A stretch of 64,000 nt of DNA from Candidatus Iainarchaeum sp. (lineage in GTDB: Archaea; Iainarchaeota; Iainarchaeia; Iainarchaeales; VGJJ01): NCBI GenBank assembly GCA_016867455.1, contig VGJJ01000001.1:3337-67336 (forward strand). The letters are read 5' to 3'. Numbering within the stretch: the first letter of the stretch is position 1; each line of letters starts with the position of its first letter. The notes under the pieces were generated by a model. The model saw nothing but the letters and a program-made list of their open reading frames with translations. It made no database searches and had not been told where the DNA came from. Below, in pieces: positions 32,265 to 64,000 of this stretch. The position numbers and the translations under genes were made by a program.

Positions 32265-33248
32265 GTGATGAAGATTCCCTACCTCACTATTTTTTTCACG
32301 CTTATTATTTTGTATGTGGCGGCGACTCAACTCAATTGGCCGAGTCTCTTGCACGCATTCCAATCAGCGAAAATAGAATATATTTTTCTCGCACTCAGTG
32401 CGTGGGTGGTGCTGGTTTTTCTTAAAGGATTCAAGTGGCAGCGTCTCGTGATTAGTTTGAATGGTAAAATTTCCTTGATTGATTCACTCATGGTCATTTT
32501 TATTGGTCTATTTGTCAGTGTGATTACGCCCGGTAGGCTGGGTGATTTTGTGCGGGCCGTGTACATTAAGGATCGTCTCGCGCTGGGAAAGGGAATTTTG
32601 GCCGTAATTGTTGATCGTGCCATGGATGTCATCACGCTGCTCATCTTTGCGGGAATCGGTCTCATTCTCTTGACGCGTGCGAAGGGAATTGAAATTATTT
32701 CTCCGGAGCTCGTTCTCATTCTGATTGCGGGATCATTTATGGCGTTAGGTGCTGGATTAAACAAGCGGGTGGCGCGTAAACTATTCAAATTATTTCAGGG
32801 AATTATTCCTCAAAAAATTCGCGAATTATTGTTGAAGCACGGTCGATCGTTCTATGAAGCGGTTCCCCTCTTTCAAACGAATGGTATTCATGTGTTGGCT
32901 GCCGTATTTTCGAGCACTGCTGCGTGGTTATTATCAATTACCTTTGGCTGGTTCCTCATGCTGGCGCTCAACATGCCATTGTCATGGAATTCCGCATTAG
33001 CGGTTGTTCCCGTTCTCGCATTAATTGAAATTATTCCCGTGGGAATACTGGGGATTGGCACGCGCGAAATTGGTGCGGTGATTGTATTAGGGGCATTTGG
33101 CATTTCTCCCGAATCCGCAGTGGCGTATTCCCTGCTTTATTTCGCATTGGGGTATATTCCCAGTTTTGCCATTGGTGCGGTGTTATTCAACCATAAACCA
33201 CTCCCCATGGACGGTGGCCTCAAAGGGTTAGCGTCCAGGTTAGGGTAA
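32265..33248 (+). CDS. UPF0104/flippase-like integral membrane protein (lysyl-PG-synthase TM-domain family)
   Basis: Eight or so TM helices. Family-typical ITPGRLGDFVRAVYIK block. Confidence 0.55.
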   Translation: MMKIPYLTIFFTLIILYVAATQLNWPSLLHAFQSAKIEYIFLALSAWVVLVFLKGFKWQRLVISLNGKISLIDSLMVIFIGLFVSVITPGRLGDFVRAVYIKDRLALGKGILAVIVDRAMDVITLLIFAGIGLILLTRAKGIEIISPELVLILIAGSFMALGAGLNKRVARKLFKLFQGIIPQKIRELLLKHGRSFYEAVPLFQTNGIHVLAAVFSSTAAWLLSITFGWFLMLALNMPLSWNSALAVVPVLALIEIIPVGILGIGTREIGAVIVLGAFGISPESAVAYSLLYFALGYIPSFAIGAVLFNHKPLPMDGGLKGLASRLG

Positions 33249-33271
33249 TACTCTCCGCGCTGCTTCGTTGA

Positions 33272-33922
33272 TTATTTTTTTTGAAACGCGAGCAAGCACG
33301 TAAGGGATAGTCCAAATGGCAATCCAAATGGCAAGTTTTGTTGGGCCATCACTCGCAGTCCCACGCGTCGCTTCATGAATCCTGGAACAAATGCATTCAC
33401 GTGATCAGGAACGCGCAGGGGTCTGCGTCCCAACAACAATCGGCTGAACGTCCACAAAACTTCATTGGGGTGAGTAATAATGAGCAACCCATTCGGTTTG
33501 AGTACGCGGGTTAATTCTGCAATGACATCCTGGTATTCGTACACGTGCTCCAATACTTCCGTACACGTGACAACGTCAAAATAATTATCTGGGAATTGCA
33601 GCGAATCCAAGTCCATGCGTTTAACCTGAGCAAATGGCACTCGTTCATGGGATTGACGCACCGCGTTATCCATGATGTCCACGCCAAAATACTCATGCAG
33701 GGGCATTTGTTGGTGAAAGCGTTGAATCAAATGTCCTTCGCCGCAGCCCGCGTCGAGGATGCGAGCCCCTTTTGGGAGATTGGCTTTGGCTACAAACTCA
33801 ACAATTTTATCCAATCGTTGAGAGTGAACAAACCGCACGAGGGCATTTTGACTCGTGTATAAACTATCCATGTTCTCGTCCGGCATATACAAATGATCGA
33901 TTCGCGCCATGGTCAATCCCAC
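33272..33922 (-). CDS. Class I SAM-dependent methyltransferase
   Basis: Motif I ARILDAGCGEGHL. Acidic motif II. 216 aa. Confidence 0.75.
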   Translation of the reverse strand: MGLTMARIDHLYMPDENMDSLYTSQNALVRFVHSQRLDKIVEFVAKANLPKGARILDAGCGEGHLIQRFHQQMPLHEYFGVDIMDNAVRQSHERVPFAQVKRMDLDSLQFPDNYFDVVTCTEVLEHVYEYQDVIAELTRVLKPNGLLIITHPNEVLWTFSRLLLGRRPLRVPDHVNAFVPGFMKRRVGLRVMAQQNLPFGLPFGLSLTCLLAFQKK

Positions 33923-33933
33923 TCATAACATGT

Positions 33934-35574
33934 TTAACGTTTTATAAACACCGCAAAATCATCATGCCAATAATCCGGGGTCATTCCGTTCGGCAGCGCA
34001 TACAAACGGGTGTCCACCACCAAATAATGGTATGGAATTTTTTCCACGCAGGAAAAACAACCCTTTTCGACTGCTTCACGAACAATCGTGGTCTCACTCA
34101 AATAGTATTGGGCAGCCGGGTTGCGTGAGAAGAGGTGCAGTGCCAGCGTAAAGTTGGCCGATGTCGCATCCACGGGAATCTTGTTTGAGTATTGAGCCAT
34201 TTTCCCGGGTCCGCGAGCGAAAAAAATAGTTCTTTCCGGGAGGGGTTCCACTCGACTAAACCATTCTGAAAAAGCCGCTTCCCGAATGCCTGTTTTGCTT
34301 CCGTGAGCGAGTCGAGTCAAATCGTTTGACGTAAAATTAATGAAAAATCCAATGAGTAATACTGCCAGTAGTACGAAAACAATTATCCGTGCGGGTGTAG
34401 CACGTGATAATGCGGCTGCCGCAAAAATAATAGTAAACAATGCCCCTGCCTCCAAGAATTTAGAATGCAACAACAATACGGGAAAAAAATTGGCCAAAAT
34501 AACATACAGCAACACTCCTAATGCGGCCAGAATTCCCGCGCGCGGGAGAAATAGGTTCCCGCGAAACGCGGCAGGCATTCTCATTCCTAAAACCAAAATG
34601 GATACGATGGGAACTACTCCCAAAAAAACAACTAATGGGAGAATCGTTCGCAAAAATGATTCAACCGATAATGAGTGTTCCAAGGGAGTAGATCCCCCGC
34701 TCAGGAGGGCGGGGAGAAACATGAATACGAGTAAGGGCAGCACGGCCACGAAGCCAATGATACTCACGCGGAGAATAGTGGTGATAGTGGGTCGATGCAA
34801 AAAGAGTGCAAACCCAAAAAGAATGCCCGCCACGTAAGGGTGGGTAATTCCCGCTCCCGCAAAGAGAATAGCACTCATCACGGGTCGGTCACGCAAGGAT
34901 AGAATAGCCGTGAACGATAGTCCCAATCCCAATAGGAGGGGATATTCTCCCACGAATAAATCCACGAAAATGAGTCGCGCCCCAATTAGTAGTGCGGCTG
35001 CAAAAAATAATGCTTCTTTTTTTCCGCTCGTCCAAATCGCGAGTCGTGTGATGGCATACACGAGCAAAATAATTCCTAGCACGCCCAACAACCATCCCCC
35101 CGCGTGGAAGGGTAATCCTGTTACTTGATGAAGTTGAGAAATTAAGAGTGGAACTCCCGGCTGATAGAAAAAGGGCACATCAAAATACGGCGCATACGTC
35201 GCGGGAATAGTTGTTTGAATTAATTTCCCTGCCGCGCTCGGAGTGGCATCCGCACTCAAATCGTATCCTCCTTGCACGCCAAAAAAAACATATCCTAGTG
35301 TAGCAACGAGGAATAGTGTGAGTAAAATCATTGCGTGAAAAGAATGGGGTGAAAAATCAAACGTGATGGCAGCGCTGTTTCCATCCACCCATTTTTTTTT
35401 GAAATGATGCAGACAAAAAACAAAAATAATGGTTGCGAGTGGAATCATCCACGTGATGCCAATCGTGTATCCTGCCCAGAGTGAAAAAATAATCCACGCG
35501 CTCAAAAATAATGCAAATTGATCCGTGAATGAAAATAGGACATTCATCAAATAATTATTTTCAAGACGATTCAT
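33934..35574 (-). CDS. Polytopic membrane protein, possible GT-C-type glycosyltransferase or oligosaccharide polymerase
   Basis: At least 12 hydrophobic helices plus a C-terminal soluble domain. No diagnostic motif. Confidence 0.5.
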   Translation of the reverse strand: MNRLENNYLMNVLFSFTDQFALFLSAWIIFSLWAGYTIGITWMIPLATIIFVFCLHHFKKKWVDGNSAAITFDFSPHSFHAMILLTLFLVATLGYVFFGVQGGYDLSADATPSAAGKLIQTTIPATYAPYFDVPFFYQPGVPLLISQLHQVTGLPFHAGGWLLGVLGIILLVYAITRLAIWTSGKKEALFFAAALLIGARLIFVDLFVGEYPLLLGLGLSFTAILSLRDRPVMSAILFAGAGITHPYVAGILFGFALFLHRPTITTILRVSIIGFVAVLPLLVFMFLPALLSGGSTPLEHSLSVESFLRTILPLVVFLGVVPIVSILVLGMRMPAAFRGNLFLPRAGILAALGVLLYVILANFFPVLLLHSKFLEAGALFTIIFAAAALSRATPARIIVFVLLAVLLIGFFINFTSNDLTRLAHGSKTGIREAAFSEWFSRVEPLPERTIFFARGPGKMAQYSNKIPVDATSANFTLALHLFSRNPAAQYYLSETTIVREAVEKGCFSCVEKIPYHYLVVDTRLYALPNGMTPDYWHDDFAVFIKR

Positions 35575-35613: not shown

Positions 35614-36345
35614 GTGCAATACATGAAACCCATGAATTCTCCCTGCTCGGTGTCGCTGGTGATTCCGGCGCATAATGAAGAAAATATTATTCGCGAAACC
35701 GCATTGTCCTATTATGATGCTCTTACTCATGCGAAGGAAATCAAATCATTTGAAATTATTCTCGTGAGCAACCATTGCTCGGATAATACTCCAAAAGTTT
35801 GCCGCGAGCTATCCAAGAAAAAAAATATTATTCATTTGGATTTTACCGAAAAAATCGGCAAAGGGGGAGCGGTAGAAAAAGGATTTATTCAAGCCAAATA
35901 CGATTGGTTGGGTTTCGTGGATGCGGATAATTCCATTAAGCCTGAACAGTTTCTTCGATTAGTGCGCGAAACCAACGCACAGGAAGTGGGTGCGGTCATT
36001 GGTTCCAAACGCATGCCTGAAACCATCATGAATCCTCCGCAGCCATTATCGCGTCAAATCATGGGATGGTTTTTTTCTAAGTTTCAGAATATTTTGTTTC
36101 AAACGGGAGTCAATGATAGTCAATGCGGTGCCAAAATTTTTAGGAGAAAAGCGATTGAGCCTATTCATTTTTTAGAAAAAGGATTCACGTTTGACGTGGA
36201 GTTGCTTCATCGCACGCTCCGCGCGGGATATAAAATAAAAGAATTGGGAGTGGTTTGTCAAAACAGTTCCGTTTCTCGCGTCAAATGGTTTTCTCCCATT
36301 CAGATGTTTATTGAACTCATTCGTTTGCGTGCGCGGGTAAAATAA
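35614..36345 (+). CDS. GT2-family glycosyltransferase (dolichyl-phosphate sugar synthase-like)
   Basis: VSLVIPAHNEE...ILVSNHCSDNT...VDADN (DxD-type) pattern. Confidence 0.8.
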   Translation: MQYMKPMNSPCSVSLVIPAHNEENIIRETALSYYDALTHAKEIKSFEIILVSNHCSDNTPKVCRELSKKKNIIHLDFTEKIGKGGAVEKGFIQAKYDWLGFVDADNSIKPEQFLRLVRETNAQEVGAVIGSKRMPETIMNPPQPLSRQIMGWFFSKFQNILFQTGVNDSQCGAKIFRRKAIEPIHFLEKGFTFDVELLHRTLRAGYKIKELGVVCQNSSVSRVKWFSPIQMFIELIRLRARVK

Positions 36346-36387: not shown

Positions 36388-37344
36388 TTATACGATTCGC
36401 GCGCGCCAATAATCCAGCGTATCATCCAGCGTCTTCTCGAAAGGAATCTCGGGCTTCCATCCGGTTTTTTGGTGGAATTTGGAGTAATCCCCGTGGAGTA
36501 TTTCTACGTCGCTCGGCCGCATGCGGGATTGATCCACTTCTACGCGAATATCTTTTTTATGGCTCTTGGACACGAGGTAATTGAGCATGTCTCGAATCAC
36601 CCATGGTCTTCCGGAGCAAATATTATATGCTTCTGCATAATCGCATTTTTGTACCGCTAAATAATAGGCTCTCACCACGTCGCGCACATCCGTATAATCG
36701 CGCTGCGCATTAAGATTTCCCACTTGAATAATGGGGCTTCGTTTTCCTTTTTCGATTTCAGCAACTTGTTTAGCAAAATTTGATGTCACAAATACGTCTC
36801 CGCGTCTCGGTCCTTCATGATTAAAGGTTCTCGTGATAATTGTTTTGAGTCCGTAACTTTTATGGTATTGATAAGCGAGCATTTCTTCGGCAACCTTGGA
36901 CACGGCGTATGGTGAAAGCGGGCGAAGGGGATTCGTCTCCTTGATTGGTACTTCCTGCGGGGTTACAAAACCGTATTCTTCAGACGAGCACGCTACTTGA
37001 ATCACTGGATTAATTTCCGCGTGGCGAACGCCTTCCAATACATTAATGGTTCCGTGCACATTCGAATCAATGGTTCCCGCAGGATGGTCGAAGGATGCGC
37101 GCACAAAACTCTGTGCGGCTAAATGGAAAATATAATCAGGCTCGGAGCGCTTGATGGCCGAATACGTTGAGAAGGGATCGCGCAAATCACATTCAATTAA
37201 TCCAATTTTGTGTTTGATGGAATCAATGTTATCCATGCGGGAGCGCCAGCGATAAGTACCATCGACTTCCAGCCCCTGCGATAGCAAATACTCGGCAAGG
37301 TGTGATCCCACGAATCCGGTTATTCCTGTGATGAGCGCGCGCAT
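36388..37344 (-). CDS. NAD-dependent sugar-nucleotide epimerase/dehydratase (GDP-mannose 4,6-dehydratase-like extended SDR)
   Basis: N-terminal MRALITGITGFVGSHLAEYLL Rossmann motif. YxxxK region. 318 aa. Confidence 0.75.
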   Translation of the reverse strand: MRALITGITGFVGSHLAEYLLSQGLEVDGTYRWRSRMDNIDSIKHKIGLIECDLRDPFSTYSAIKRSEPDYIFHLAAQSFVRASFDHPAGTIDSNVHGTINVLEGVRHAEINPVIQVACSSEEYGFVTPQEVPIKETNPLRPLSPYAVSKVAEEMLAYQYHKSYGLKTIITRTFNHEGPRRGDVFVTSNFAKQVAEIEKGKRSPIIQVGNLNAQRDYTDVRDVVRAYYLAVQKCDYAEAYNICSGRPWVIRDMLNYLVSKSHKKDIRVEVDQSRMRPSDVEILHGDYSKFHQKTGWKPEIPFEKTLDDTLDYWRARIV

Positions 37345-37368: not shown

Positions 37369-38148
37369 TTAAATCTCATTTTTTTGTTGCAGAATTAATT
37401 GTTCCAATTTTTTAGACCATTTCCACTGATCAATGTTTTTCGTGATGAATAGTCTCATTTTTTTTTCTAGTTTTTGCTGGTAAAATTGAATGACTTTTTC
37501 AGTTATTTCGTTCTCGCTTCCGGCCGAGAATAGTAAACCATTTTTCCCATCGTTTACCCATTCGGCATTTCCTCCCACGTTCGAGGCTAAAATGGGCACG
37601 CCGAATGATAGGGCTGTGGGAATCACGGCAGACTGGGAGATGGCTGTATATGGTAAAATGACCGCATCCGCTGCGCTAAAGTAGAGTGGCATTTCTTCGT
37701 CTTTCACGAATCGATTCACGAGTTTGACGTGTTCACGAATGTGGAGCGCGTCAATGATATTTTCGTATTCGGCCTGGTCACCCCAGTATTCTCCCACCAC
37801 TAATAATGTTAGTTTTGGCCGTTGGGCGAGGATGGCGGGCATTGCGTTTAGGAGGATTTTCAATCCCTTGTAGGGGCGGACAAACCCGAAGAAGAGGAGC
37901 ACGTCTCCTTTAATTTGTAGTTTTTTTTGAGCGAGTTCTTTTGAAATGGTTTCATTCGTTCGCGGAATCAAATCAAGTTGGGGTCCCCGAACGTAAACAA
38001 CCTTTTTTTTCGGGAGATGTTTTTGAATCAAGTGCTGAGACTCATGAGACTGCACCACTAAGTAGTCAAGTTTTCCCAAAAATAATTTGGTTAACAGTCG
38101 GTGCACGGCAAAAAAGGGTTGGCTGTGGAGCAGGTGAATGATTTTCAT
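37369..38148 (-). CDS. GT4 glycosyltransferase, C-terminal (Glycos_transf_1) half
   Basis: Carries only the C-terminal GT4 domain (FVRPYKG...SFGVPILASNVGG). Its start overlaps the stop of 38145..38570 by ATGA. Confidence 0.65.
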   Translation of the reverse strand: MKIIHLLHSQPFFAVHRLLTKLFLGKLDYLVVQSHESQHLIQKHLPKKKVVYVRGPQLDLIPRTNETISKELAQKKLQIKGDVLLFFGFVRPYKGLKILLNAMPAILAQRPKLTLLVVGEYWGDQAEYENIIDALHIREHVKLVNRFVKDEEMPLYFSAADAVILPYTAISQSAVIPTALSFGVPILASNVGGNAEWVNDGKNGLLFSAGSENEITEKVIQFYQQKLEKKMRLFITKNIDQWKWSKKLEQLILQQKNEI

Positions 38149-38570
38149 GCGTTTTTCACTCCGTGGGGAAACACATTATGAATCATCGCCGCAGTGGTGG
38201 TGTGTCCGCGGATGAGTAGGTTAATGAAAAAATAGCACGGAAACAAGTACGTGGTCCACCACACAAAAAATACTCGGTCGGGTTTTTCTCGGCGAATGAA
38301 CGTGCTCACGTTCCACCAATTCAGAGGGTTGAGTGCATCCACCCATTCTCTTTTTTCATAGGATAATTTTTCTTTTTTTTCGTCCATGCGCGAGTGGGCG
38401 AAAAGAATCGAAGGGTAGAGTCTCTTGAATGAGAGTCCAATTACCGTGTTTGATTCTCCGAGCAGCGTGCAAAACTCGTGGGTGGCACCGGCGATTCCTC
38501 CTCGCGTCGGAGGGAGTGGTCCGATGATGATTATTTTCATTCCAACACGTTCCGTTTTATTGTTTGACAA
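38145..38570 (-). CDS. GT4 glycosyltransferase, N-terminal half (split from 37369..38148)
   Basis: MKIIIIGPLPPTRGGIAG is a typical GT4 N-domain start. It is only 141 aa. Confidence 0.55.
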   Translation of the reverse strand: MSNNKTERVGMKIIIIGPLPPTRGGIAGATHEFCTLLGESNTVIGLSFKRLYPSILFAHSRMDEKKEKLSYEKREWVDALNPLNWWNVSTFIRREKPDRVFFVWWTTYLFPCYFFINLLIRGHTTTAAMIHNVFPHGVKNA

Positions 38571-57999: not shown

Positions 58000-59529
58000 T
58001 TATGGCTGTATTACGGGCAATGCTGTTCGTTGATTGGTTTCCCCTAGGCTGGCTTTCTTGGATGTGTTAAACAAGTATTTGAAAAATGTTAATCCACTTT
58101 TAACGAGTCGGGGAAACTCGTGGGGTGAAGTAATTCCTTCCCAGACTTTGGCGGCAATAAACGATGGCCGCATGTAAAAGTTTCTCCGGGCATCATCGCA
58201 TGCTTGCACGAGTTCGTTCGCAGTGAGTTTATCCGTGCTCACAATCGTGTTATGAGTCCCGTCTTCAAGGAGCCAGTTCTCCCAATTCTCTGCTTGAATG
58301 GTCAAAAAATTATTGGTCTTCGCCCACTCATAGGCTTCGGTTCCCGGGTACACCATGATAGGGAAGAATTGTACCGTATCGGGGTTCACGCGCTTGGCGA
58401 ATTCAACGGTTTGTTGAATCGTTTCACGTGTCTCGCCACGGTTTCCCATCATGAAGCACGCGTGCACGAGAACACCGGCCTCTTTCGTGTCTTTGAAGAA
58501 TTGTTCAATCTTCGTCACGTGGGTTCCTTTCTTGATGTTGTTTAATATTTCCTGCGACGCACTCTCAACGCCGACGCAAACTAATCGGCACCCGGCTTTT
58601 TTCATTATTTTAAGTGTCTCCAAATCCACATCCGCGCGGGAATTAACGGTCCATGTTACGTTTAGTTTGCGGTCAATTATTTCTTGGCAAATTTGTTTGA
58701 CGCGGATGCGATCAACAGTGAATGTGTCATCTTCCACCATGATGTCTTTCACATAAGGCAAGTTTTCCTTAATCCATGCTAATTCATCCACCACATTCTT
58801 CACGCTGCGCGAGCGAAAATTATGTCCAGTAAAGTTTTGGGGCCAATCACAAAACGTGCAACGGAATGGGCATCCTCTTCCAGTAATAATCGTCACTTCT
58901 GGATACAATACGGAGGGATAAAAGTAATCGCGTATGTTCAAATGTTTGTCCCAAATCTGCGTAACGAAGGGGAGTTTATCTAAATAGTCCGCGGGCACGT
59001 CGGGTGCATCCGGGTTTTTGATAATTTCATTTTTTTCATTACGATACGTTATCCCTTTCACCGACTCGTAGGATTTTCCCTGTTCCAAGTGGTTAGCTAC
59101 TTCAACGGCAATCAAATCGTATTCCTTACGCATGACCATGTCCACTCCTGGAGAAATAGTCAAGGTATTTTCGGATACCGCGGAGACGTGGGGTCCGACC
59201 ATGGCAATAATACAATTCGGGAGGACTTTCTTAATGGCTGCAGCGACTTTTCCATCATTGACAACGGATGAGGTGACCGTGTGCATAATGAGCAAGCGGG
59301 GATTGAATGATTTAGCAATAGTGACCATTTGTTCCAGCGTCATCATTTCTTTCGGCGCGGTCGCATCAACCAGTTTAGGAGTATGCCCGTTGATTTCAAG
59401 GGACCCTGCTGCGTAACCCAACCAAATAGGATAATACACACACCCCCCCTTTGACACGGCGGGAGAGCGGGAGTTTTTGCTAAACTGAGGAAAATAGGGC
59501 GGATTGAGTAGCATGACGTTTATTCCCAT
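58000..59529 (-). CDS. Cobalamin-binding (class B) radical SAM enzyme
   Basis: B12-binding N-domain. GRGCPFRCTFCDW. Confidence 0.85.
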   Translation of the reverse strand: MGINVMLLNPPYFPQFSKNSRSPAVSKGGCVYYPIWLGYAAGSLEINGHTPKLVDATAPKEMMTLEQMVTIAKSFNPRLLIMHTVTSSVVNDGKVAAAIKKVLPNCIIAMVGPHVSAVSENTLTISPGVDMVMRKEYDLIAVEVANHLEQGKSYESVKGITYRNEKNEIIKNPDAPDVPADYLDKLPFVTQIWDKHLNIRDYFYPSVLYPEVTIITGRGCPFRCTFCDWPQNFTGHNFRSRSVKNVVDELAWIKENLPYVKDIMVEDDTFTVDRIRVKQICQEIIDRKLNVTWTVNSRADVDLETLKIMKKAGCRLVCVGVESASQEILNNIKKGTHVTKIEQFFKDTKEAGVLVHACFMMGNRGETRETIQQTVEFAKRVNPDTVQFFPIMVYPGTEAYEWAKTNNFLTIQAENWENWLLEDGTHNTIVSTDKLTANELVQACDDARRNFYMRPSFIAAKVWEGITSPHEFPRLVKSGLTFFKYLFNTSKKASLGETNQRTALPVIQP

Positions 59530-59621: not shown

Positions 59622-60203
59622 TCACTTTTTGCGCGCAACAAAAACCATGTCCTCTTTCAGGGAAAAAGGCACGAGTTGATGGATTATCTTTCGTATGGGA
59701 AAAAACCATTTGTTTCGAGCCCCATCCGATGATTCTTCCGTGAACGGAAATAATTCCACGCGCTCAACCAGAAACCCGTTTCTTTCAAGCAAATTTTTCA
59801 GCGAGGGAATGTCAAAAAGGGAAAGGTGGAGGGGCATTTCATACGAGTGAGTAAGACGGTTGAGCCAGCTTTTCTTGTTCGGGGTTGAAAGTGCCAGCAC
59901 GCCATTTTTTTGGAGAACACGCGCACACTCCTGGATGAAACGCTCGGGTTGGGGAACGTGTTCGATTACTTCCCCCGCGAGTATCCCATCAAACGAGTTA
60001 TCGCGGAATGGCATTTGTTGACCATCCCCAATGACTTGATTCGTGCGCACGTGGATGAGCTCGATGTCTAATGAAATAATTTTTGGAGGAGAGTGGCGCG
60101 CGAGCAAATCCTCATGCAGTGTTCCCGCACTCCCGCCCACATCAAGTATTTTTCCAGCAAGGGGAGTCAGTAATGCTTCGACGCGCGTCCTCATGAATAT
60201 CAC
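59622..60203 (-). CDS. SAM-dependent methyltransferase
   Basis: ILDVGGSAGTL motif I. Methyltransf_11-like. Confidence 0.75.
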   Translation of the reverse strand: MIFMRTRVEALLTPLAGKILDVGGSAGTLHEDLLARHSPPKIISLDIELIHVRTNQVIGDGQQMPFRDNSFDGILAGEVIEHVPQPERFIQECARVLQKNGVLALSTPNKKSWLNRLTHSYEMPLHLSLFDIPSLKNLLERNGFLVERVELFPFTEESSDGARNKWFFPIRKIIHQLVPFSLKEDMVFVARKK

Positions 60204-60943
60204 CCTAGTTTTCCGGCGTGAATACTTTTCCAGTTTTTTACTACTTCATTGGCACGCGTCAACTCATCAATGGTTCCCGCATCCAACCATTCGCCGGATA
60301 ATTTACTCGCCGCGAGTGCATTCCGTGAAATGTATTGATTATGAATGTCGGTTATTTCAAGCTCTCCCCTCTGTGAAGGTTTGAGGGTTCGAATAATATC
60401 GAACACGCCGGGGTTGAACATATACACTCCGATGCTCACCCAATTCGTGGGGGGATCTTTTGGTTTTTCGATTAATTTAGTGACGCGCTCTCCCTCCATG
60501 ACGGCAACTCCTGCTTTCATGGCTTCTTCTCGTGTCGTCTCATACAATAAAATGCGCGCGTCTTCTTTTCCGTGGGCAAATGCATCCATGAATGGTTTAA
60601 TGGAGTGCGACAAAATATTGTCTCCATTTACTGAAACGAATTTTTCTTTTCCAACAAATCCTTCGGCCAATGCAATGGCGTGCGGCAATCCTCCCGCGGT
60701 GTCTTGTACGCGATACGTGAAATGCACTCCGAAGTCTTTTCCGCTTCCCATGAGTTTGAAAATATTTCCCGCATGTTCGGTTCCCGTGATGATTAGTATT
60801 TCCGTTATTCCTGCTTCCTTGAGGGTTTGCAACGGATAATAAATCATGGGCCTATCATAAATGGGAAGTAAATGTTTGTTGGTCACGGAAGTCAATGGTC
60901 GCAGTCGCGTGCCATTTCCTCCAGCAAGAATAACGCCTTTCAT
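60200..60943 (-). CDS. rmlA: Glucose-1-phosphate thymidylyltransferase (short archaeal form)
   Basis: MKGVILAGGNGTRLRPLT...NKHLLPIYDRPMIYYP. Start at ATG 60943, immediately after the stop of the upstream gene. The ORF-track N-terminal extension is unsupported. Confidence 0.85.
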   Translation of the reverse strand: MKGVILAGGNGTRLRPLTSVTNKHLLPIYDRPMIYYPLQTLKEAGITEILIITGTEHAGNIFKLMGSGKDFGVHFTYRVQDTAGGLPHAIALAEGFVGKEKFVSVNGDNILSHSIKPFMDAFAHGKEDARILLYETTREEAMKAGVAVMEGERVTKLIEKPKDPPTNWVSIGVYMFNPGVFDIIRTLKPSQRGELEITDIHNQYISRNALAASKLSGEWLDAGTIDELTRANEVVKNWKSIHAGKLG

Positions 60944-60944
60944 T

Positions 60945-61928
60945 TTAGTTGCCTCCTTTTGGTAAAAAATACTCATGATACCATGGAACCGTTTCACGCA
61001 ATCCTTTTTCAAGCGAATAATTGGGAGACCATCCCAATAATTCTTGCGTGGAACGAATGTCAAGCACGGGGTGATCACGGTCATCAAATGGTCGATTATC
61101 AAACGAAATTTGGGTGGGAAAAGGCATTGTTTTCTGGACAATTTCAGCAATCTGGCGAATAGTCGACAGGTTTCCGGACGCAAAAGTGACTGCCTTTCCA
61201 TTGACGGATTTGGAATGACAGTTCTCGGCTAAGCGAATCATTCCATTTACTGCATCCTGCACATACAAAAAGTCCCGCTTGATTTTTCCATCACCTTTTA
61301 GGGTGATTGTTTTTTTCGTAAAAAGTTCTTTCATCATAATAGGTATGAGTCGATTAAAGTTCGTGTCATTGGGGCCATAAATATTTGTATTCTGCGCGAT
61401 GGCTCCATTCATTCCATATGCGTGAAAATAACTTCGTGCAATAACTTGCGTGCAAAACTTGCTGGCATCATACGGATGAAGGGGCGCCATGACATCTGTT
61501 TTGTTGCTGGACAATGGTTCGAATGCTCTCACCGATCCGGCTAGTATTAGGGGTGTTTGTTCCTTTTTTGCGCGGAGTGCATCCAATAAGAAAAGAGTGC
61601 CATTCACATTGCTTTCAAATGTTTCCACTGGAATTTGGATTGATTTCCACGTGTCCGATTGCGATGCTAAGTGAAAAATGAAATCAAACGCGTGGGTGTT
61701 AACTAATTGTTGTACACTCTCGCGCGAACGCAATTCAAGGGGGTGCACCTTAATCGTTTTTCCGGGGAATAAACGGTCTAAATAAGGAGTATTTTTGGGA
61801 GATCGGCTCGCGCCCTCAATGATGGCTCCCTGCTGAAGCAATTCGTTGGCGAGGTGGGAGCCGATAAAGCCATTTATCCCCGTGATTAGGACTCGCTTCC
61901 CTGACCAATTAGTCGTTCGCATACGCAT
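60945..61928 (-). CDS. NAD-dependent sugar-nucleotide epimerase/dehydratase (extended SDR)
   Basis: VLITGINGFIGSHLANELL Rossmann motif. 327 aa. Confidence 0.75.
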   Translation of the reverse strand: MRMRTTNWSGKRVLITGINGFIGSHLANELLQQGAIIEGASRSPKNTPYLDRLFPGKTIKVHPLELRSRESVQQLVNTHAFDFIFHLASQSDTWKSIQIPVETFESNVNGTLFLLDALRAKKEQTPLILAGSVRAFEPLSSNKTDVMAPLHPYDASKFCTQVIARSYFHAYGMNGAIAQNTNIYGPNDTNFNRLIPIMMKELFTKKTITLKGDGKIKRDFLYVQDAVNGMIRLAENCHSKSVNGKAVTFASGNLSTIRQIAEIVQKTMPFPTQISFDNRPFDDRDHPVLDIRSTQELLGWSPNYSLEKGLRETVPWYHEYFLPKGGN

Positions 61929-61936
61929 CTTTGCTC

Positions 61937-63334
61937 CTACACCAATAAATGACCATGTTTAATGCTCCCGGCCAATCGTGCCCATTTGATGGCGAATGCA
62001 TAACAAATGCCGAGCATCACAATCGCCAAAAAATGGAGCATACTTTGATTCCGAATAAAGGTCATTCCACGGGGAGAGGACAATTCAAAAGTAGGTTTAG
62101 CGTCATTCCATAACCCGGTGGCAACTTTAAAATCAACCACGGGATCAACGATAAATCCACCCCTCACGTGCAGGAAAGTATTGCATAGTTTACTTTTTGC
62201 ATGCTTCTGATGCAGCAACACGTCATTCATGTGATACTTGAATCGCTGCAGCGTGTATAAAATAATTTTTTGAAACGTTTTAGGTGTAACGAGCGTTCGA
62301 TCCCCATGCCACTTGGCACCGTTCACTTTCACGTATTCGTAACCCAATTCAATAATCCTAAATGAAAGATCCGTGTCTTCGCGGTAATAAAAAAAGTCCT
62401 CATCATAGCCGCCTAAATAATCCAGCAGGTCTTTTCGAAAACCAGTCGATGTTCCGCCGTAGTGACCGTACGCGCTCACCGCACCCACGCGCGGAGAATC
62501 AAATCCATTCACCATAATCTGCAGCCAATCCGGTTCAGGATTGTCATCATGATCCATGTTGATGACTACTTCATATTTGGCCGCGCGTATTCCGGCATTA
62601 CGCGCTTTGCACACTCCGGAGCGCGGAAGAAAAAGGAGCGTCACTCGTTTATCATGAGCAAAATTTTTCTTCAAAAGTGAAGGAGTTACTCCATCAAAAC
62701 TCCCATCATCCACCACAATAACTTCGTATTTTCCGGCAAATTGTTGGCTGAGCATTCCGTGAATTGCCTTGATAAGTGGTTCTCCACCATTGAGGGTGGC
62801 CACTACAATACTGGCTGTTTTTGGAGGAGGGCTTTTGGGGCGCGGGGTAGTTGGCAGAGCAACTTCCAATTCGCTGGCAGCATGTTTGAGTGAAGGAATC
62901 ACGTGGCCTCTTACGGGCAATGGGGGGTTTTTTTGCGCACGTTGAATAGCTGCGGATAAATTTTCAATATCATATACGACCACACCGTATTTTTCTTTCT
63001 CCGCGGCGCGAGCTAGTTCTAGTTGATGATCATTCGTGTGTTCACCATATTTTTTTCGGCGAGGCACAATGACCATGGGTATTCGTCCCTGGATTGCCCA
63101 ACCCATGTTTCCCTCCCCCGCGTGTGTAATAAATACATCCGCTTCCCGAATCGTTTTTTCAAAAACGTCCGGGTTCATGAAGGGATGAACTTCCACGCCA
63201 TGATGAGTGAATGGCGTGTATCCTGATTGTATGATTATTTTTCCTCGAATGATTCCTTTTTCTCGCAGTCGGACCACTTCGTTGAGCAAGCGGGAAAATG
63301 AGTCAGGATGCGTTCCCACGGAAACAAAAATCAT
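61937..63334 (-). CDS. Fusion protein: Alg13-like (GT28 C-terminal domain) + GT2 glycosyltransferase
   Basis: N-terminal ~150 aa MIFVSVGTH...FITHAGEGN resembles the Alg13/MurG C-domain. C-terminal IVVATLNGGEPL...VIVVDDGSFDG is GT2. Confidence 0.7.
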   Translation of the reverse strand: MIFVSVGTHPDSFSRLLNEVVRLREKGIIRGKIIIQSGYTPFTHHGVEVHPFMNPDVFEKTIREADVFITHAGEGNMGWAIQGRIPMVIVPRRKKYGEHTNDHQLELARAAEKEKYGVVVYDIENLSAAIQRAQKNPPLPVRGHVIPSLKHAASELEVALPTTPRPKSPPPKTASIVVATLNGGEPLIKAIHGMLSQQFAGKYEVIVVDDGSFDGVTPSLLKKNFAHDKRVTLLFLPRSGVCKARNAGIRAAKYEVVINMDHDDNPEPDWLQIMVNGFDSPRVGAVSAYGHYGGTSTGFRKDLLDYLGGYDEDFFYYREDTDLSFRIIELGYEYVKVNGAKWHGDRTLVTPKTFQKIILYTLQRFKYHMNDVLLHQKHAKSKLCNTFLHVRGGFIVDPVVDFKVATGLWNDAKPTFELSSPRGMTFIRNQSMLHFLAIVMLGICYAFAIKWARLAGSIKHGHLLV

Positions 63335-63792
63335 GAATGGTCACTTCCAAAAATACTTCCAACGTAAACGCCGGAAGGATAATAGGGTTTGAGTTCTTTC
63401 CACTGATATAAAACACGATCCGCGAATAATGATACGATTCTCCCCGTGATGCCAGGCTCCGTTACCCGGCAAAAACTTTCAATAAAAATAATGGGGACCC
63501 CTTGAATTTTGGCGGCCACGCAAACGGGAACAGTAACATCGGCCCCCGTGCTGATAACGAGGCATGGTTTTTCGGTTGAAATTATTTTCCATGCCTGAAA
63601 AAAAGATTTTATCGTTCGAAAAGGATTTCGTGCCGGTCGTTCAATGAAGTATACTTTCTCGGATGAAGAAAGAGCACGCGTGTCCGGTCGTTCAAATGTT
63701 ACAAAAAAATGGTTTGTTTGACGATAAAATGATTGCAATTGTTTCATTTCGGCCAAGTGACCGCCCGCGGAACATGTTAACAAAACACTCAT
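63331..63792 (-). CDS. Alg14-like (GT28 N-terminal domain) membrane-anchoring subunit
   Basis: MSVLLTCSAGGHLAEM...PCLVISTGA is the pattern of Alg14/EpsF-type partners. Adjacent to the Alg13-like gene. Confidence 0.7.
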   Translation of the reverse strand: MSVLLTCSAGGHLAEMKQLQSFYRQTNHFFVTFERPDTRALSSSEKVYFIERPARNPFRTIKSFFQAWKIISTEKPCLVISTGADVTVPVCVAAKIQGVPIIFIESFCRVTEPGITGRIVSLFADRVLYQWKELKPYYPSGVYVGSIFGSDHS

Positions 63793-64000
63793 GATGCCAA
63801 CCCCAAATAGGAAATCGCACTGGTGCTTGTCACATAATTAATCCAAAAAACAGCAAGGGTAATGGCAATAACCACTAGCTGCATTCCTAGAATAATGAGA
63901 ACCACTTGTTTTTCCGTAAAATTTCCCATCCGCATTACTACGTGGGTTAGGCTTCCTATTTTTTCTGGTGCACGCAGTGTTCCATCCGGCTGTATTTTTC
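63789..64000 (-). CDS. Partial CDS (C-terminus of a membrane protein, possibly the TM tail of a GT2/GtrA-like protein); continues beyond the window
   Basis: Hand translation of the minus strand gives ...KQVVLIILGMQLVVIAITLAVFWINYVTSTSAISYLGLAS* with its TGA overlapping the Alg14-like ATG (ATGA). Confidence 0.4.
   Translation of the reverse strand, partial: KIQPDGTLRAPEKIGSLTHVVMRMGNFTEKQVVLIILGMQLVVIAITLAVFWINYVTSTSAISYLGLAS

What the first reader, a model, noticed from the sequence alone, without database searches (positions are those of the whole stretch)
32265..64000. About 31-kb glycan locus with three cobalamin-dependent radical SAM enzymes plus a SPASM radical SAM
The locus encodes five GT2 and about five GT4 transferases, two GT-C-like proteins, an Alg13/Alg14 pair, RmlA/RmlB, two further SDR enzymes, a Wzx flippase, two UPF0104 membrane proteins and three methyltransferases. 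It also encodes three paralogous B12-binding radical SAM enzymes (40937, 47618, 58000) and a SPASM-type radical SAM (44591). Class B radical SAM enzymes characteristically methylate or rearrange unactivated carbons. Three in one surface-glycan or lipid-linked-oligosaccharide locus suggests heavily C-methylated or otherwise radical-modified sugars or lipid carriers. Such chemistry has not been described for archaeal N-glycans.
Basis: partly seen in the sequence, partly recalled or inferred. Interest (0 to 1): 0.65.

Follow-up and report, generated by a model that had tools for sequence, protein, structure and literature searches.

The report
Radical SAM enzymes in archaeal glycan locus
A tiny-celled (DPANN) archaeon keeps four radical-chemistry enzymes inside the gene cluster that builds its surface-protein sugars, each beside a sugar-transferring enzyme; this points to an undescribed kind of sugar tailoring that is also found in several hundred other archaeal and bacterial species.

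Summary
Window 32265-64000 is a dense glycan locus with three B12-domain radical SAM genes (rS1 40937-42391, rS2 47618-49249, rS3 58000-59529) and one SPASM radical SAM gene (44591-45703). The contig is from a Diapherotrites/Iainarchaeia MAG. An identical overlapping contig shows a GlcNAc-1-P transferase-type gene and AglB just past the window end, so the right-hand operon is an N-glycosylation operon.

Corrections:
- The three enzymes are only 27-30% identical, so they are three old families, not recent paralogs.
- The GT-C and Wzx labels could not be verified.

New findings:
- Every radical SAM gene sits next to a GT2 gene.
- rS3 and its downstream GT2 form a pair conserved in 64 of 80 species-level genomes, from DPANN archaea to anaerobic bacteria. 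A small methyltransferase and an RmlA-like enzyme often accompany the pair.
- rS3 is the sister family of hopanoid HpnJ (36% identity, 200/200 bootstrap). HpnJ is a proposed sugar ring-contraction enzyme that also sits next to a GT2, HpnI.
- None of the three reaches any curated family cut-off. Their best matches are mostly non-methylating enzymes.

"C-methylated sugars" is therefore only one option. Sugar tailoring on a lipid- or nucleotide-linked sugar is the best-supported reading. I found no published description.

The parts
32265..33248 (+). UPF0104 / LPG_synthase_TM membrane protein (flippase-like domain), left edge of locus
   Evidence: Pfam PF03706 145.5 bits. NCBIfam TIGR00374 flippase-like domain 86.6 > 43.2; HpnL 33 bits, below cut-off.
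33272..33922 (-). class I SAM methyltransferase (MT1)
   Evidence: Methyltransf_11 83.7 bits.
33934..35574 (-).
   Evidence: About 10 hydrophobic segments plus a C-terminal soluble part. No Pfam, NCBIfam or PDB match. A 31% ortholog in L004 sits beside a GT2/B12-rSAM pair and a UPF0104 gene.
35614..36345 (+). GT2 (GT2a)
   Evidence: Glycos_transf_2 82.5 bits.
36388..37344 (-). SDR, sugar 4,6-dehydratase-like (Gmd/LegB-like)
   Evidence: GDP_Man_Dehyd 293 bits. Gmd 197.7 bits, below cut-off.
37369..38570 (-). GT4 split into two ORFs (38145-38570, 141 aa; 37369-38148, 259 aa)
   Evidence: Glycos_transf_1 91 bits on the C-terminal half. The two ORFs overlap by 4 nt.
38557..39522 (-). RmlB, dTDP-glucose 4,6-dehydratase
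   Evidence: TIGR01181 452.7 > 365.1 bits.
39589..40629 (+). GT2b, AglJ / polyprenyl-phosphate-sugar-synthase-like, two C-terminal TM helices; immediately upstream of rS1
   Evidence: AglJ 132 bits, PpgS 90 bits, Dol-P-hexose transferase 86 bits, all below cut-off. TM segments 266-284 and 302-320.
40937..42391 (+). rS1, B12-domain radical SAM enzyme, family 1
   Evidence: Pfam domains. CPYRCGFC at residue 206. Best NCBIfam match HpnJ 216.7 of 577.6. A 100% identical NCBI protein is labelled Candidatus Diapherotrites archaeon.
42428..42904 (-). YbaK / tRNA_edit-domain protein
   Evidence: PF04073 30.9 bits. Its position is conserved in L014.
42940..44526 (-). 547-aa (probably 528-aa) polytopic membrane protein, large uncharacterised family
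   Evidence: 797 cluster representatives with full-length matches that start at residue 20. No Pfam family. Weak profile match to the AglB-S2 C-terminal domain 3vu0, E=0.03.
44591..45703 (+). radical SAM enzyme with a SPASM/twitch-type C-terminal Cys cluster
   Evidence: Radical_SAM 49.3 bits; SPASM 23.6 > 21.5 bits. CNARCSHC motif plus five C-terminal Cys. An 86% ortholog is in L014.
45727..46689 (-). GT2c, paralog of GT2e, convergent with the SPASM gene
   Evidence: Glycos_transf_2 112 bits. 32% identity to GT2e, E=1e-27.
46788..47558 (+). GT2d, AglJ/Dol-P-hexose-transferase-like, 59 nt upstream of rS2
   Evidence: Pfam. AglJ 69 bits.
47618..49249 (+). rS2, B12-domain radical SAM enzyme, family 2, with an N-terminal extension of about 90 aa
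   Evidence: Pfam. CVFSCIFC at residue 285. Best NCBIfam matches BchE 204, ApyD 197, HpnJ 186, all below cut-off. Orthologs above 70% exist only in the same lineage.
49280..50194 (-). second UPF0104 / LPG_synthase_TM membrane protein
   Evidence: PF03706 77.9 bits.
50191..50781 (-). weak class I methyltransferase-like protein (MT2)
   Evidence: Methyltransf_23 23 bits, below cut-off. Position conserved in L014.
50821..52311 (+). 496-aa polytopic membrane protein, possibly a glycosyltransferase
   Evidence: Weak NCBIfam hits: LA_3751/3752 putative glycosyltransferase E=1.3e-7 and a glycopolymer formation protein E=4.4e-7. The AF2 single-sequence model was unusable, pLDDT 47.
52308..54481 (+). 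two GT4 genes (52308-53372, 53369-54481)
   Evidence: Pfam.
54493..55812 (-).
   Evidence: No Pfam or PDB match. A 52% ortholog sits at the same position in L001.
55809..56948 (-). GT4d
   Evidence: Pfam. A homolog lies within 2 kb of rS3 homologs in 27 of 80 loci.
56939..57925 (-). GT2e, membrane-anchored GT2, conserved partner of rS3
   Evidence: Glycos_transf_2 122 bits; Glyco_transf_21 30.8 bits. C-terminal TM helices. An ortholog (median 48% identity) lies within 2 kb in 64 of 80 loci.
58000..59529 (-). rS3, B12-domain radical SAM enzyme, sister family of HpnJ
   Evidence: HpnJ model 437.6 of 577.6 bits over the full length. 35.6% identity to P. graminis HpnJ. Clade with HpnJ 200/200. AF2 pLDDT 89.5 with class B-type fold matches.
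59622..60203 (-). class I methyltransferase MT3, frequent companion of rS3
   Evidence: Pfam. A homolog lies within 2 kb in 28 of 80 loci, either upstream of rS3 or between rS3 and the GT2.
60200..60943 (-). RmlA-like sugar-1-phosphate nucleotidyltransferase
   Evidence: NTP_transferase 191.9 bits. rmlA_long 232.7 of 320 bits. Homologs of median 70% identity lie within 2 kb in 26 of 80 loci.
60945..61928 (-). SDR3, NDP-hexose 4,6-dehydratase-like
   Evidence: Pfam. dTDP- and CDP-glucose dehydratase models about 140 bits, below cut-off.
61937..63334 (-). Alg13-like (GT28 C-terminal) domain fused to a GT2 domain
   Evidence: Pfam. PssE 95.2 bits.
63331..63792 (-). Alg14-like
   Evidence: Alg14 64.8 bits. 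PssD 137 > 110 bits.
63789..64000 (-). 3' end of a Glycos_transf_4 (AglH/GPT-type) gene cut by the window edge; AglB follows outside the window
   Evidence: L010 is 100% identical over 752 nt. The C-terminal 69 aa of the protein are encoded here. AglB (716 aa, STT3) is the next gene.

Best explanation
The locus is the main envelope-glycan cluster of an Iainarchaeia (DPANN) archaeon. Its right-hand operon reads AglB, GlcNAc-1-P-transferase type, Alg14, Alg13/GT2, SDR, RmlA-like, methyltransferase, rS3, GT2e, GT4, membrane protein. That operon assembles the dolichol-linked N-glycan.

The four radical SAM enzymes are sugar-tailoring enzymes. Each is wired to its own membrane-anchored or dolichol-phosphate-sugar-type GT2. 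The most likely mechanism has four steps:
1. The GT2 puts a hexose or hexosamine on a membrane lipid carrier (dolichol phosphate or the growing lipid-linked glycan).
2. The radical SAM enzyme abstracts a hydrogen from an unactivated sugar carbon and rearranges or alkylates the sugar while it is lipid-linked, sometimes followed by a class I methyltransferase.
3. For the two left-hand modules, a UPF0104 flippase-like protein moves the product outward.
4. A large polytopic membrane protein then transfers the product to its final acceptor.

rS3 belongs to a widespread sister family of HpnJ. It probably performs HpnJ-like chemistry (ring contraction or rearrangement) or C-alkylation on the product of GT2e.

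Shown here: gene content, linkage to AglB, conserved pairing and family placement. Inferred: the substrate stage (lipid-linked rather than nucleotide-linked), cobalamin use and the reaction type.
For: **Gene content and source**
- Domain content of the locus.
- The source is a Diapherotrites/Iainarchaeum MAG.

**Link to N-glycosylation**
- AglB and the Glycos_transf_4 gene lie directly beyond the window on a contig that is 100% identical where it overlaps.
- The same order is seen in orthologous loci at 92% identity.
- The nine genes from Alg14 to the 439-aa protein are co-directional, with gaps of at most 92 nt.

**Pairing with GT2**
- GT2b is followed by rS1, GT2d by rS2, and rS3 by GT2e, each on the same strand. 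The SPASM gene lies next to GT2c.
- An rS3+GT2e ortholog pair lies within 2 kb in 64 of 80 species-level genomes, spanning Iainarchaeia, Micrarchaeota, Hydrothermarchaeota, Desulfobacterales, Anaerolineae, Omnitrophota, Planctomycetota and Nitrospirota.
- The GT2 is directly downstream in 41 of 73 loci. In about 17 more, one MT3-like gene is inserted between the two.

**Relation to HpnJ**
- rS3 scores 437.6 bits on the HpnJ model against 173 bits for the next family.
- It is 35.6% identical to HpnJ over 486 aa and forms a clade with it in 200/200 replicates.
- HpnJ shares 60 of the 89 conserved positions of the rS3 family, against 44-46 for rS1 and rS2.
- hpnJ, hpnI (GT2) and an LPG-synthase-domain gene follow each other in Paraburkholderia.
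- HpnJ and Cds act on lipid-linked sugars (PMC13459092).

**Module recurrence**
- GT2 with a TM tail, B12-rSAM, MT, B12-rSAM and UPF0104 occur together in an Aenigmarchaeota locus.
- The central block is conserved in L014.
- rS1-like genes sit with UbiA, GtrA, SDR, PgpA and PMT-like proteins, i.e. polyprenyl-phosphate sugar donor pathways.
- GT2b and GT2e have C-terminal TM helices.
Against: - No biochemical data exist for any member of the three families.
- GT2e shows no detectable similarity to HpnI, and the UPF0104 proteins none to the Paraburkholderia HpnL-like protein. The parallel with the hopanoid module is one of architecture, not orthology.
- rS3 lacks 29 of its own family-invariant positions in HpnJ, including three invariant Cys, so the chemistry may differ.
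- rS3 homologs also co-occur with an RmlA-like gene and SDR genes (26 and about 20 of 80 loci). That fits a nucleotide-sugar substrate equally well.
- The GT-C and flippase roles of the polytopic proteins are unverified.
- The best structural match is AprD4, which has the same fold but does not use cobalamin (the cobalamin point is from my own knowledge).
- Only the right-hand operon is tied directly to AglB. The rS1, SPASM and rS2 modules could serve another glycoconjugate.
Confidence: 0.55

Rival explanations
1. The radical SAM enzymes act on soluble nucleotide-activated sugars before transfer. RmlA-like and SDR enzymes would make an NDP-4-keto-6-deoxyhexose. The B12-type radical SAM enzyme, with or without the class I methyltransferase, would then C-methylate, dehydrate, epimerise or rearrange it. 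The dedicated GT2 would transfer the unusual sugar.
For: - rS3 homologs are linked to a highly conserved RmlA-like gene (median 70% identity, within 2 kb in 26 of 80 loci) and to SDR genes.
- In the window the order is SDR3, RmlA-like, MT3, rS3, GT2e, with gaps of 92 nt or less.
- The closest solved structure is AprD4, a radical SAM enzyme acting on an amino-sugar.
- Precedent from my own knowledge: Fom3 acts on a CMP-activated substrate and DesII on a TDP-sugar.
Against: - The linkage to GT2e (64 of 80 loci) is much tighter than to the nucleotidyltransferase (26 of 80).
- The closest characterised relative, HpnJ, is proposed to act after glycosyl transfer on a lipid-bound sugar.
- rS1- and rS2-type genes sit with polyprenyl-phosphate-sugar machinery and UPF0104 proteins rather than with nucleotidyltransferases.
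Confidence: 0.25
2. The radical SAM enzymes modify membrane lipids or lipid head groups rather than protein glycans. One form would be a calditol- or cyclitol-like head group on archaeol or GDGT, made by GT2 plus radical SAM and flipped by UPF0104. Another would be modification of the isoprenoid chains, as with the GDGT-type enzymes.
For: - The characterised relatives HpnJ and Cds build lipid head groups, and other class B enzymes (GrsA/B, Gmm) modify GDGT chains.
- UPF0104 proteins carry the MprF-type flippase-like domain.
- rS1-like genes neighbour UbiA-family prenyltransferases in 8 of 17 loci.
- The window also encodes MEP-pathway genes and a geranylgeranyl reductase family protein.
Against: - rS3 lies in one operon with Alg13/14, the Glycos_transf_4 gene and AglB.
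- Bacterial family members lie in polysaccharide clusters with Bac_transf, GalE, acyltransferases and GT4 genes, in organisms without GDGTs.
- No lipid-core biosynthesis gene lies inside 32265-64000.
- Chain-modifying enzymes would not need a conserved GT2 partner.
Confidence: 0.15
3. The radical SAM genes are passengers. They would be ordinary housekeeping or peptide-modifying enzymes that merely happen to lie in a variable glycan island.
For: - Glycan loci are mosaic and variable. Most window genes outside the rS3 block have no ortholog in the related loci.
- The SPASM enzyme's best models are heme and peptide maturases at low scores.
Against: - The rS3+GT2e pairing is conserved across two domains.
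- The rS1, SPASM and rS2 block keeps its order in a MAG at 75-86% identity.
- The module recurs in Aenigmarchaeota.
- No precursor-peptide-like or heme gene is present in the locus.
Confidence: 0.05

Closest known systems
HpnI-HpnJ(-HpnK-HpnL) module of bacterial hopanoid side-chain biosynthesis (HpnJ = TIGR03471)
   Same: - rS3 has the same B12-domain plus radical SAM architecture.
- It is 35.6% identical to HpnJ over the full length and forms a sister clade with it at 200/200 support.
- The gene order is the same: radical SAM gene, then a GT2 immediately downstream, with an LPG-synthase/UPF0104-type membrane protein nearby.
- The substrate of HpnJ is a sugar bound to a membrane lipid.
   Different: - rS3 scores below the HpnJ equivalog cut-off (437.6 < 577.6).
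- There are no hopanoid genes, and the host is an archaeon.
- GT2e is not an HpnI ortholog, and no HpnK-type deacetylase is present.
- Three Cys that are invariant in the rS3 family are absent from HpnJ.
- Here the context is an AglB-anchored glycan operon.
Calditol synthase Cds (Saci_1489) of Sulfolobus acidocaldarius
   Same: It is an archaeal radical SAM enzyme proposed to contract a lipid-linked glucose into a five-membered carbocycle. That is the same type of proposal as for HpnJ.
   Different: Sequence relatedness could not be tested because the Cds sequence was not obtainable. Cds homologs are reported mainly from acidic environments, whereas this family comes from groundwater, sediment and lake DPANN archaea and anaerobic bacteria.
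Three-component lipid-linked monosaccharide pathways: Haloferax AglD/AglR/AglS, bacterial ArnC/ArnD/ArnEF/ArnT, mycobacterial decaprenyl-phospho-ribose to -arabinose (own knowledge)
   Same: - A GT2 or UbiA-type enzyme loads a sugar on a polyprenyl phosphate.
- The sugar is modified while lipid-linked, flipped, and transferred by a polytopic transferase.
- The window has AglJ/Dol-P-hexose-synthase-like GT2s with C-terminal TM helices, flippase-like UPF0104 proteins and large polytopic proteins.
- rS1-like genes sit with UbiA, GtrA, SDR, PgpA and PMT-like genes.
   Different: In the known systems the lipid-stage modification is deformylation or epimerisation by non-radical enzymes. Here it would be radical SAM chemistry. 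The GT-C nature of the polytopic proteins is not shown.
Sugar-tailoring class B-type radical SAM enzymes of aminoglycoside pathways (GenK, GenD1, AprD4)
   Same: They share the same fold and act on sugars. AprD4 is the best structural and PDB sequence match of rS3.
   Different: Identity is only 13-20%. Those are soluble secondary-metabolite pathways of actinomycetes. The AprD4 model scores 83-134 of 500 bits.
BchE (anaerobic Mg-protoporphyrin monomethyl ester cyclase)
   Same: It is the top NCBIfam match of rS2 (204 bits) and the second for rS1 and rS3. Homologs are commonly auto-annotated as BchE.
   Different: The scores are far below the 481-bit cut-off. There are no chlorophyll genes, and the host is a non-phototrophic archaeon.

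Membership tests
Class B (B12-domain) radical SAM superfamily | CxxxCxxC radical SAM cluster motif in a TIM-barrel core | tested here: met
   CPYRCGFC (rS1), CVFSCIFC (rS2) and CPFRCTFC (rS3). PF04055 78-93 bits.
Class B (B12-domain) radical SAM superfamily | N-terminal Rossmann-type B12-binding domain | tested here: met
   PF02310 71.6, 72.8 and 47.3 bits against a cut-off of 32.1. The rS3 model (pLDDT 89.5) superposes on TsrM, OxsB, TokK, CysS and MgmA.
Class B (B12-domain) radical SAM superfamily | actual cobalamin binding and use | not testable with these tools
   The best structural match, AprD4, has the same domain, so the fold alone does not prove cobalamin use.
HpnJ (TIGR03471 equivalog) | score at or above the curated equivalog cut-off | tested here: not met
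   rS3 437.6, rS1 216.7 and rS2 185.7 bits against a cut-off of 577.6.
HpnJ (TIGR03471 equivalog) | location among hopanoid biosynthesis genes (shc, hpnH, hpnI, hpnK) | tested here: not met
   None of these is in the window or in the 80 related loci. GT2e gives no BLASTP hit to HpnI.
HpnJ (TIGR03471 equivalog) | specific phylogenetic affinity to HpnJ | tested here: met
   The rS3 family, the Lawsonia protein and HpnJ form a clade in 200/200 NJ bootstrap replicates. HpnJ shares 60 of the 89 conserved positions of the rS3 family. rS3 is a sister family, not a member.
Class B radical SAM methyltransferases (HpnR, KedN5, TsrM, PhpK, RiPP C-methyltransferases) | score at or above a curated family cut-off | tested here: not met
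   HpnR 89-122 of 650; KedN5 74-83 of 700; TsrM 37-52 of 500; PhpK 125-167 of 600; rSAM_ocin_1 87-115 of 282.
GDGT/archaeal-lipid radical SAM enzymes (GrsA, GrsB, Cds, Gmm, Tes) | sequence clustering with the characterised Sulfolobus or Thermococcus enzymes | not tested
   Reference sequences could not be obtained with the tools. Only the context argument is available.
SPASM/twitch radical SAM enzymes | C-terminal Cys-rich auxiliary-cluster domain | tested here: met
   PF13186 23.6 bits against a cut-off of 21.5. Cys at residues 277, 295, 335, 337 and 341. All named subfamilies score far below cut-off.
Archaeal N-glycosylation (agl) cluster | physical linkage to the oligosaccharyltransferase AglB and a priming phosphoglycosyltransferase | tested here: met
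   L010 is 100% identical over 752 nt and continues into Glycos_transf_4 (346 aa) and STT3/AglB (716 aa). The same order is seen in L001-L003.
Archaeal N-glycosylation (agl) cluster | the encoded glycan is demonstrably N-linked to protein | not testable with these tools
   The surface proteins at 13007 and 28461 carry 10 and 13 N-x-S/T sequons, which is not above composition expectation.
   No Pfam hit, even across 56 family members. Only a weak profile match of the 547-aa family to the AglB-S2 C-terminal domain, E=0.03, without WWDYG. The 496-aa protein has weak NCBIfam glycosyltransferase hits. The AF2 model was unusable.
   No Pfam match up to E=5, no NCBIfam match up to E=0.01 and no PDB match up to E=10. 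It remains a polytopic protein of unknown family.

The most novel reading that the evidence does not exclude
The HpnJ-sister radical SAM enzyme, its cognate GT2 and often a small methyltransferase and a dedicated nucleotidyltransferase together form a general, so far undescribed glycan-tailoring module. It is present in several hundred archaeal and anaerobic bacterial species. The module would convert a lipid-linked hexose into a carbocyclic (cyclitol-like) or C-alkylated residue that ends up in N-glycans or other envelope glycans. Iainarchaeia would stack up to four such radical steps in one locus, which would give a glycan chemistry unknown in any domain.
Probability: 0.3. Interest if true: 0.8.

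Novelty: new variant of a known kind. Interest (0 to 1): 0.6.

Why it matters
- Archaeal N-glycans are already the most chemically diverse known, but every described tailoring step is polar chemistry. Radical SAM tailoring would add a new reaction class.
- The rS3+GT2 pair gives HpnJ, whose mechanism is still unexplored, a large family of relatives in simpler, transferable two- to four-gene modules. That makes the ring-contraction-versus-methylation question directly testable.
- DPANN archaea live attached to or dependent on other cells, and their surface glycans are likely interaction determinants.
- Dependence on scavenged cobalamin for envelope synthesis would be an unrecognised nutritional link.
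- A homolog in a glycan cluster on a plasmid of the pig pathogen Lawsonia intracellularis offers a cultured entry point.

Tried and rejected
- **Exact-sequence look-ups.** The look-ups for rS3 and for the 100%-identical rS1 protein found no contig on record. The source contig itself was not retrieved. An identical Alg14 did give the overlapping contig L010.
- **HpnI/HpnL orthology.** BLASTP of GT2e against HpnI, and of the UPF0104 proteins against the Paraburkholderia HpnL-like protein, gave nothing at E<1e-3. I dropped the idea that the whole hopanoid module is orthologous.
- **GT-C and Wzx labels.**
  - A relaxed Pfam scan found nothing.
  - A Pfam scan of 56 members of the 547-aa family hit only DUF6541, in 3 of 56.
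  - PDB sequence and profile searches gave nothing convincing.
  - AF2 of the 496-aa protein without an alignment gave pLDDT 47, so it was not searched further.
- **AFDB fold search.** The library was not available. The PDB Foldseek search confirmed only the class B-type fold.
- **Zeng et al. 2018 on Cds.** The paper is not held, so the Cds domain structure and sequence could not be checked.
- **Literature.** Searches for radical SAM with AglB, with polysaccharide or glycosyltransferase, and with LPS or glycan C-methylation gave nothing relevant.
- **Sequon counts.** Counts in the two surface proteins are not above shuffled expectation, so they carry no information.
- **First tree script.** It timed out and was rerun with a faster distance method.
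- **Rejected reading: recent paralogs made by local duplication.** Pairwise identity is 27-30%, and each enzyme has separate, deep homolog families.

Full report
**What is in the sequence**

ORF listing and Pfam/NCBIfam scans confirm a dense glycan locus from 32265 to the window end. It contains:
- five stand-alone GT2 genes (35614, 39589, 45727, 46788, 56939) and a sixth GT2 domain fused to an Alg13-like domain (61937-63334);
- Alg14 (63331-63792);
- four GT4 genes, one of them split into two ORFs (37369-38570);
- RmlB (38557-39522; 452.7 bits against a cut-off of 365.1);
- an RmlA-like nucleotidyltransferase (60200-60943);
- two further sugar-dehydratase-like SDR genes;
- two UPF0104/LPG_synthase_TM proteins, one of which passes the 'flippase-like domain' model TIGR00374;
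- three class I methyltransferases, one of them weak;
- four polytopic membrane proteins without a family (546, 547, 496 and 439 aa);
- a YbaK-type tRNA_edit-domain protein.

The four radical SAM genes are intact, and each carries CxxxCxxC. Three have a Pfam B12-binding domain above threshold. The fourth has a SPASM domain just above threshold (23.6 against 21.5 bits).

**Source organism and true extent of the locus**

- A protein 100% identical to rS1 is recorded by NCBI from a Candidatus Diapherotrites archaeon MAG.
- The nearest relatives of all three enzymes are Diapherotrites/Iainarchaeum MAGs.
- Contig L010 carries an identical Alg14 and is 100% identical to the last 752 bases of the window. 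It continues into a 346-aa Glycos_transf_4 protein and a 716-aa STT3/AglB. The last 212 bases of the window encode the C-terminus of that Glycos_transf_4 protein.
- The 92%-identical orthologous loci show the same order: AglB, Glycos_transf_4, Alg14, Alg13/GT2, SDR, NTP-transferase, MT, B12-rSAM, GT2, GT4, 442-aa protein.
- In the window, the nine genes from Alg14 to the 439-aa protein are co-directional. They overlap or are separated by at most 92 nt.

rS3 is therefore part of an AglB-anchored N-glycosylation operon.

**The three B12-type enzymes are three different old families**

- They are 27-30% identical to each other.
- rS3 has a very large homolog family.
- rS1 has 83-86% orthologs in the same lineage, then drops to 48% or less.
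- rS2 has 71-79% orthologs in eight clusters only, then drops below 40%.
- MAG contigs of 77.2, 51.9, 39.0 and 32.4 kb recur in the hit lists for two or three of the enzymes. The central block GT2, rS1, YbaK, 539-aa protein, SPASM-rSAM, GT2, GT2, rS2, UPF0104, MT, 500-aa protein is conserved in L014.

**Placement against known families**

No curated NCBIfam cut-off is reached.

| Enzyme | Best NCBIfam matches (bits) | Cut-off of the top match |
|---|---|---|
| rS3 | HpnJ 437.6, over the full length; next family BchE 173 | 577.6 |
| rS1 | HpnJ 217, BchE 178, ApyD 162 | 577.6 |
| rS2 | BchE 204, ApyD 197, HpnJ 186, PhpK 167 | 481 |

- Known C-methylase models score very low: HpnR 89-122 of 650, KedN5 74-83 of 700, TsrM 37-52 of 500.
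- tblastn against annotated plasmids found bona fide HpnJ genes at about 36% identity over 95% of rS3, and a Lawsonia intracellularis plasmid gene at 44%.
- In an NJ tree of 47 sequences, the rS3 family, the Lawsonia protein and HpnJ form a clade in 200 of 200 bootstrap replicates.
- HpnJ keeps 60 of the 89 positions conserved in the rS3 family, against 44-46 for rS1 and rS2. It lacks 29 of them, including three invariant cysteines.
- A confident AF2 model of rS3 (pLDDT 89.5) matches AprD4, TsrM, OxsB, MgmA, CysS and TokK at 13-20% identity. That confirms the fold and nothing more specific.

rS3 is a sister family of HpnJ, not a member of it. 'Class B, therefore methylation' is not a safe inference for any of the three.

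**Conserved gene linkage**

Each radical SAM gene is next to a GT2 on the same strand:
- GT2b (39589-40629) is followed by rS1;
- GT2d (46788-47558) is followed by rS2, 59 nt downstream;
- rS3 is followed by GT2e (56939-57925), 74 nt downstream.

The SPASM gene lies next to GT2c, a paralog of GT2e.

For rS3 the pairing holds across genomes. Linkage in 80 species-representative loci:

| Neighbour of the rS3 homolog | Loci with a homolog within 2 kb | Note |
|---|---|---|
| GT2e ortholog | 64 | median 48% identity; present somewhere in 66 loci |
| MT3-like methyltransferase | 28 | upstream of rS3, or between rS3 and the GT2 |
| RmlA-like gene | 26 | median 70% identity |
| GT4d-like gene | 27 | |

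- The GT2e ortholog is directly downstream in 41 of the 73 loci with room. In about 17 more, one MT3-like methyltransferase gene lies in between.
- The family spans Iainarchaeia, Micrarchaeota, Hydrothermarchaeota and bacteria: Desulfobacterales, Anaerolineae, Omnitrophota, Fibrobacteres, Planctomycetota and Nitrospirota.
- In a Desulfobacterales genome the pair is followed by a Bac_transf priming transferase.
- In Lawsonia the homolog sits among GT2, GalE, DUF2304, SIS, methyltransferase and second radical SAM genes.
- Solidesulfovibrio plasmid pDCAR1 has four such enzymes in a glycan cluster.

**Parallel with the hopanoid module**

In Paraburkholderia graminis the order is hpnJ, hpnI (GT2), then an LPG-synthase-domain protein. 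That is the same architecture as rS3, GT2e and the nearby UPF0104 proteins. GT2e and the UPF0104 proteins are not detectably similar to HpnI and the HpnL-like protein. The resemblance is therefore one of architecture plus the radical SAM enzyme, not of the whole module. HpnJ is required for converting hopanoid-bound glucosamine into a cyclitol ether. Cds does the analogous step for calditol. Both are proposed ring contractions on lipid-bound sugars and remain mechanistically untested (PMC13459092).

**Contexts of rS1- and rS2-like genes**

- An Aenigmarchaeota locus shows a 624-aa membrane protein, then GT2 with a TM tail, B12-rSAM, MT, B12-rSAM and LPG_synthase_TM. This mirrors GT2d, rS2, UPF0104b, MT2 and the 496-aa protein in the window.
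- rS1-like genes at 42-48% identity sit with UbiA-type prenyltransferases in 8 of 17 loci. They also sit with GtrA-like, SDR, PgpA and PMT/PMT_2/GtrII-like proteins and with GT2+DUF2304 pairs. This is the gene set of polyprenyl-phosphate-sugar donor pathways.
- GT2b has the two C-terminal TM helices typical of polyprenyl-phosphate glycosyltransferases, and GT2e is also membrane-anchored.

**Most likely mechanism**

- Shown: an AglB-linked glycan locus, three distinct class B-type enzymes plus one SPASM enzyme, each paired with a GT2, with rS3 sister to HpnJ.
- Inferred: the GT2 loads a sugar onto a membrane lipid carrier. The radical SAM enzyme abstracts a hydrogen from an unactivated sugar carbon and rearranges or alkylates the sugar, with a class I methyltransferase sometimes following. 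In the left-hand modules, UPF0104 proteins flip the product and large polytopic proteins transfer it outside.
- Precedents for modification at the lipid-linked monosaccharide stage are ArnD, decaprenyl-phospho-ribose epimerisation and HpnK/HpnJ (own knowledge).

I give about 0.55 to this reading. The variant in which the enzymes act on nucleotide sugars gets 0.25, a lipid-head-group or lipid-chain role 0.15, and a passenger role 0.05. Within the sugar-tailoring readings I cannot separate ring contraction from C-methylation. HpnJ affinity favours ring contraction for rS3. The general frequency of methylases in class B favours methylation.

**Limits**

Only context speaks against it.
- Cobalamin use is inferred from the domain.
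- The GT-C and Wzx labels remain unverified. The 547-aa protein belongs to a family of about 800 clusters with no Pfam model. It has only a weak (E=0.03) profile match to the C-terminal domain of an AglB paralog, without the WWDYG motif.
- The tree is a small NJ tree without methylase outgroups.

**Novelty**

Full-text searches found no paper linking radical SAM enzymes to AglB, archaeal N-glycosylation or surface polysaccharide tailoring. A 2024 review of archaeal N-glycosylation does not contain the word 'radical'. All homologs carry only generic or BchE/YgiQ auto-annotations. I rate the finding a new variant of a known kind, namely HpnJ-type sugar tailoring moved into protein and envelope glycan assembly. 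Interest is 0.6.

Noticed in passing
window 1865-5142: Three bacterial-type MEP (non-mevalonate) isoprenoid pathway genes pass NCBIfam equivalog cut-offs on this DPANN archaeal contig: Dxr 515.6 > 461, IspH 238.6 > 187.85, IspE 220.4 > 138.7 bits. The MEP pathway is described as almost absent in archaea (PMC11052028).
   Followed up: partly
window 42428-42904 (-): A YbaK/tRNA_edit-domain protein lies between rS1 and the 547-aa membrane protein, and its position is conserved in the related MAG L014. An aminoacyl-tRNA-editing-type domain is unexpected in a glycan locus. It sits near MprF-type (LPG_synthase_TM) membrane proteins.
   Followed up: no
window 58000-59529, residues C314, C318, C358: The rS3 family has three invariant cysteines outside the CxxxCxxC motif, on two adjacent barrel strands. 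HpnJ has L, L and T at these positions. They could be an auxiliary metal site or active-site thiols.
   Followed up: partly
window 37369-38570 (-): A GT4 is encoded as two ORFs (141 aa N-terminal half, 259 aa C-terminal half) that overlap by 4 nt. It is either a genuine two-subunit GT4 or a frameshift.
   Followed up: no
window 42940-44583 (-): The 547-aa polytopic protein belongs to a family of about 800 clusters at 50% identity with no Pfam model. The profile weakly matches the C-terminal globular domain of Archaeoglobus AglB-S2 (3vu0, E=0.03), but the WWDYG motif is absent. Homolog matches start at residue 20, so the true start is probably at 44526.
   Followed up: partly
L008 (Lawsonia intracellularis plasmid 1, NC_008012.1 16055-17518): The 27-kb plasmid of this pig pathogen carries a 44%-identical rS3 homolog in a glycan cluster. 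The cluster also holds a second radical SAM gene, five class I methyltransferase genes, GT2+DUF2304 pairs and a DUF2142 protein. It was the only cultured organism found with a close rS3 homolog.
   Followed up: partly
L180 (Parabacteroides distasonis plasmid 4, 49256-50467): The nearest annotated relative of the SPASM enzyme (30% identity over 91% of its length) is immediately followed by a glycosyltransferase annotated with 'lipid glycosylation'. This is another radical SAM plus glycosyltransferase pair.
   Followed up: no
L012/L013, L097, L099/L100, L101, L103, L104, L106, L108: rS1-like genes (42-48% identity) neighbour UbiA-family prenyltransferases in 8 of 17 loci. Some also have GtrA, SDR and PgpA genes, an arrangement reminiscent of the mycobacterial decaprenyl-phospho-arabinose pathway.
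   Followed up: partly
window 28461-33248 and L004 16491-21305: The block of UPF0104, M48 peptidase and a surface protein of about 930 aa (Big_13, fn3, signal-peptide-like N-terminus) is syntenic between the window and the complete Iainarchaeum genome CP064981.1. The large protein is a candidate S-layer or glycoprotein substrate.
   Followed up: no
window 17998-18081, 22651-22725, 24290-24364: Three tRNA genes (Ser-CGA, Ala-CGC, Gln-CTG) lie in the left half of the window. No other Rfam family reached its threshold.
   Followed up: yes
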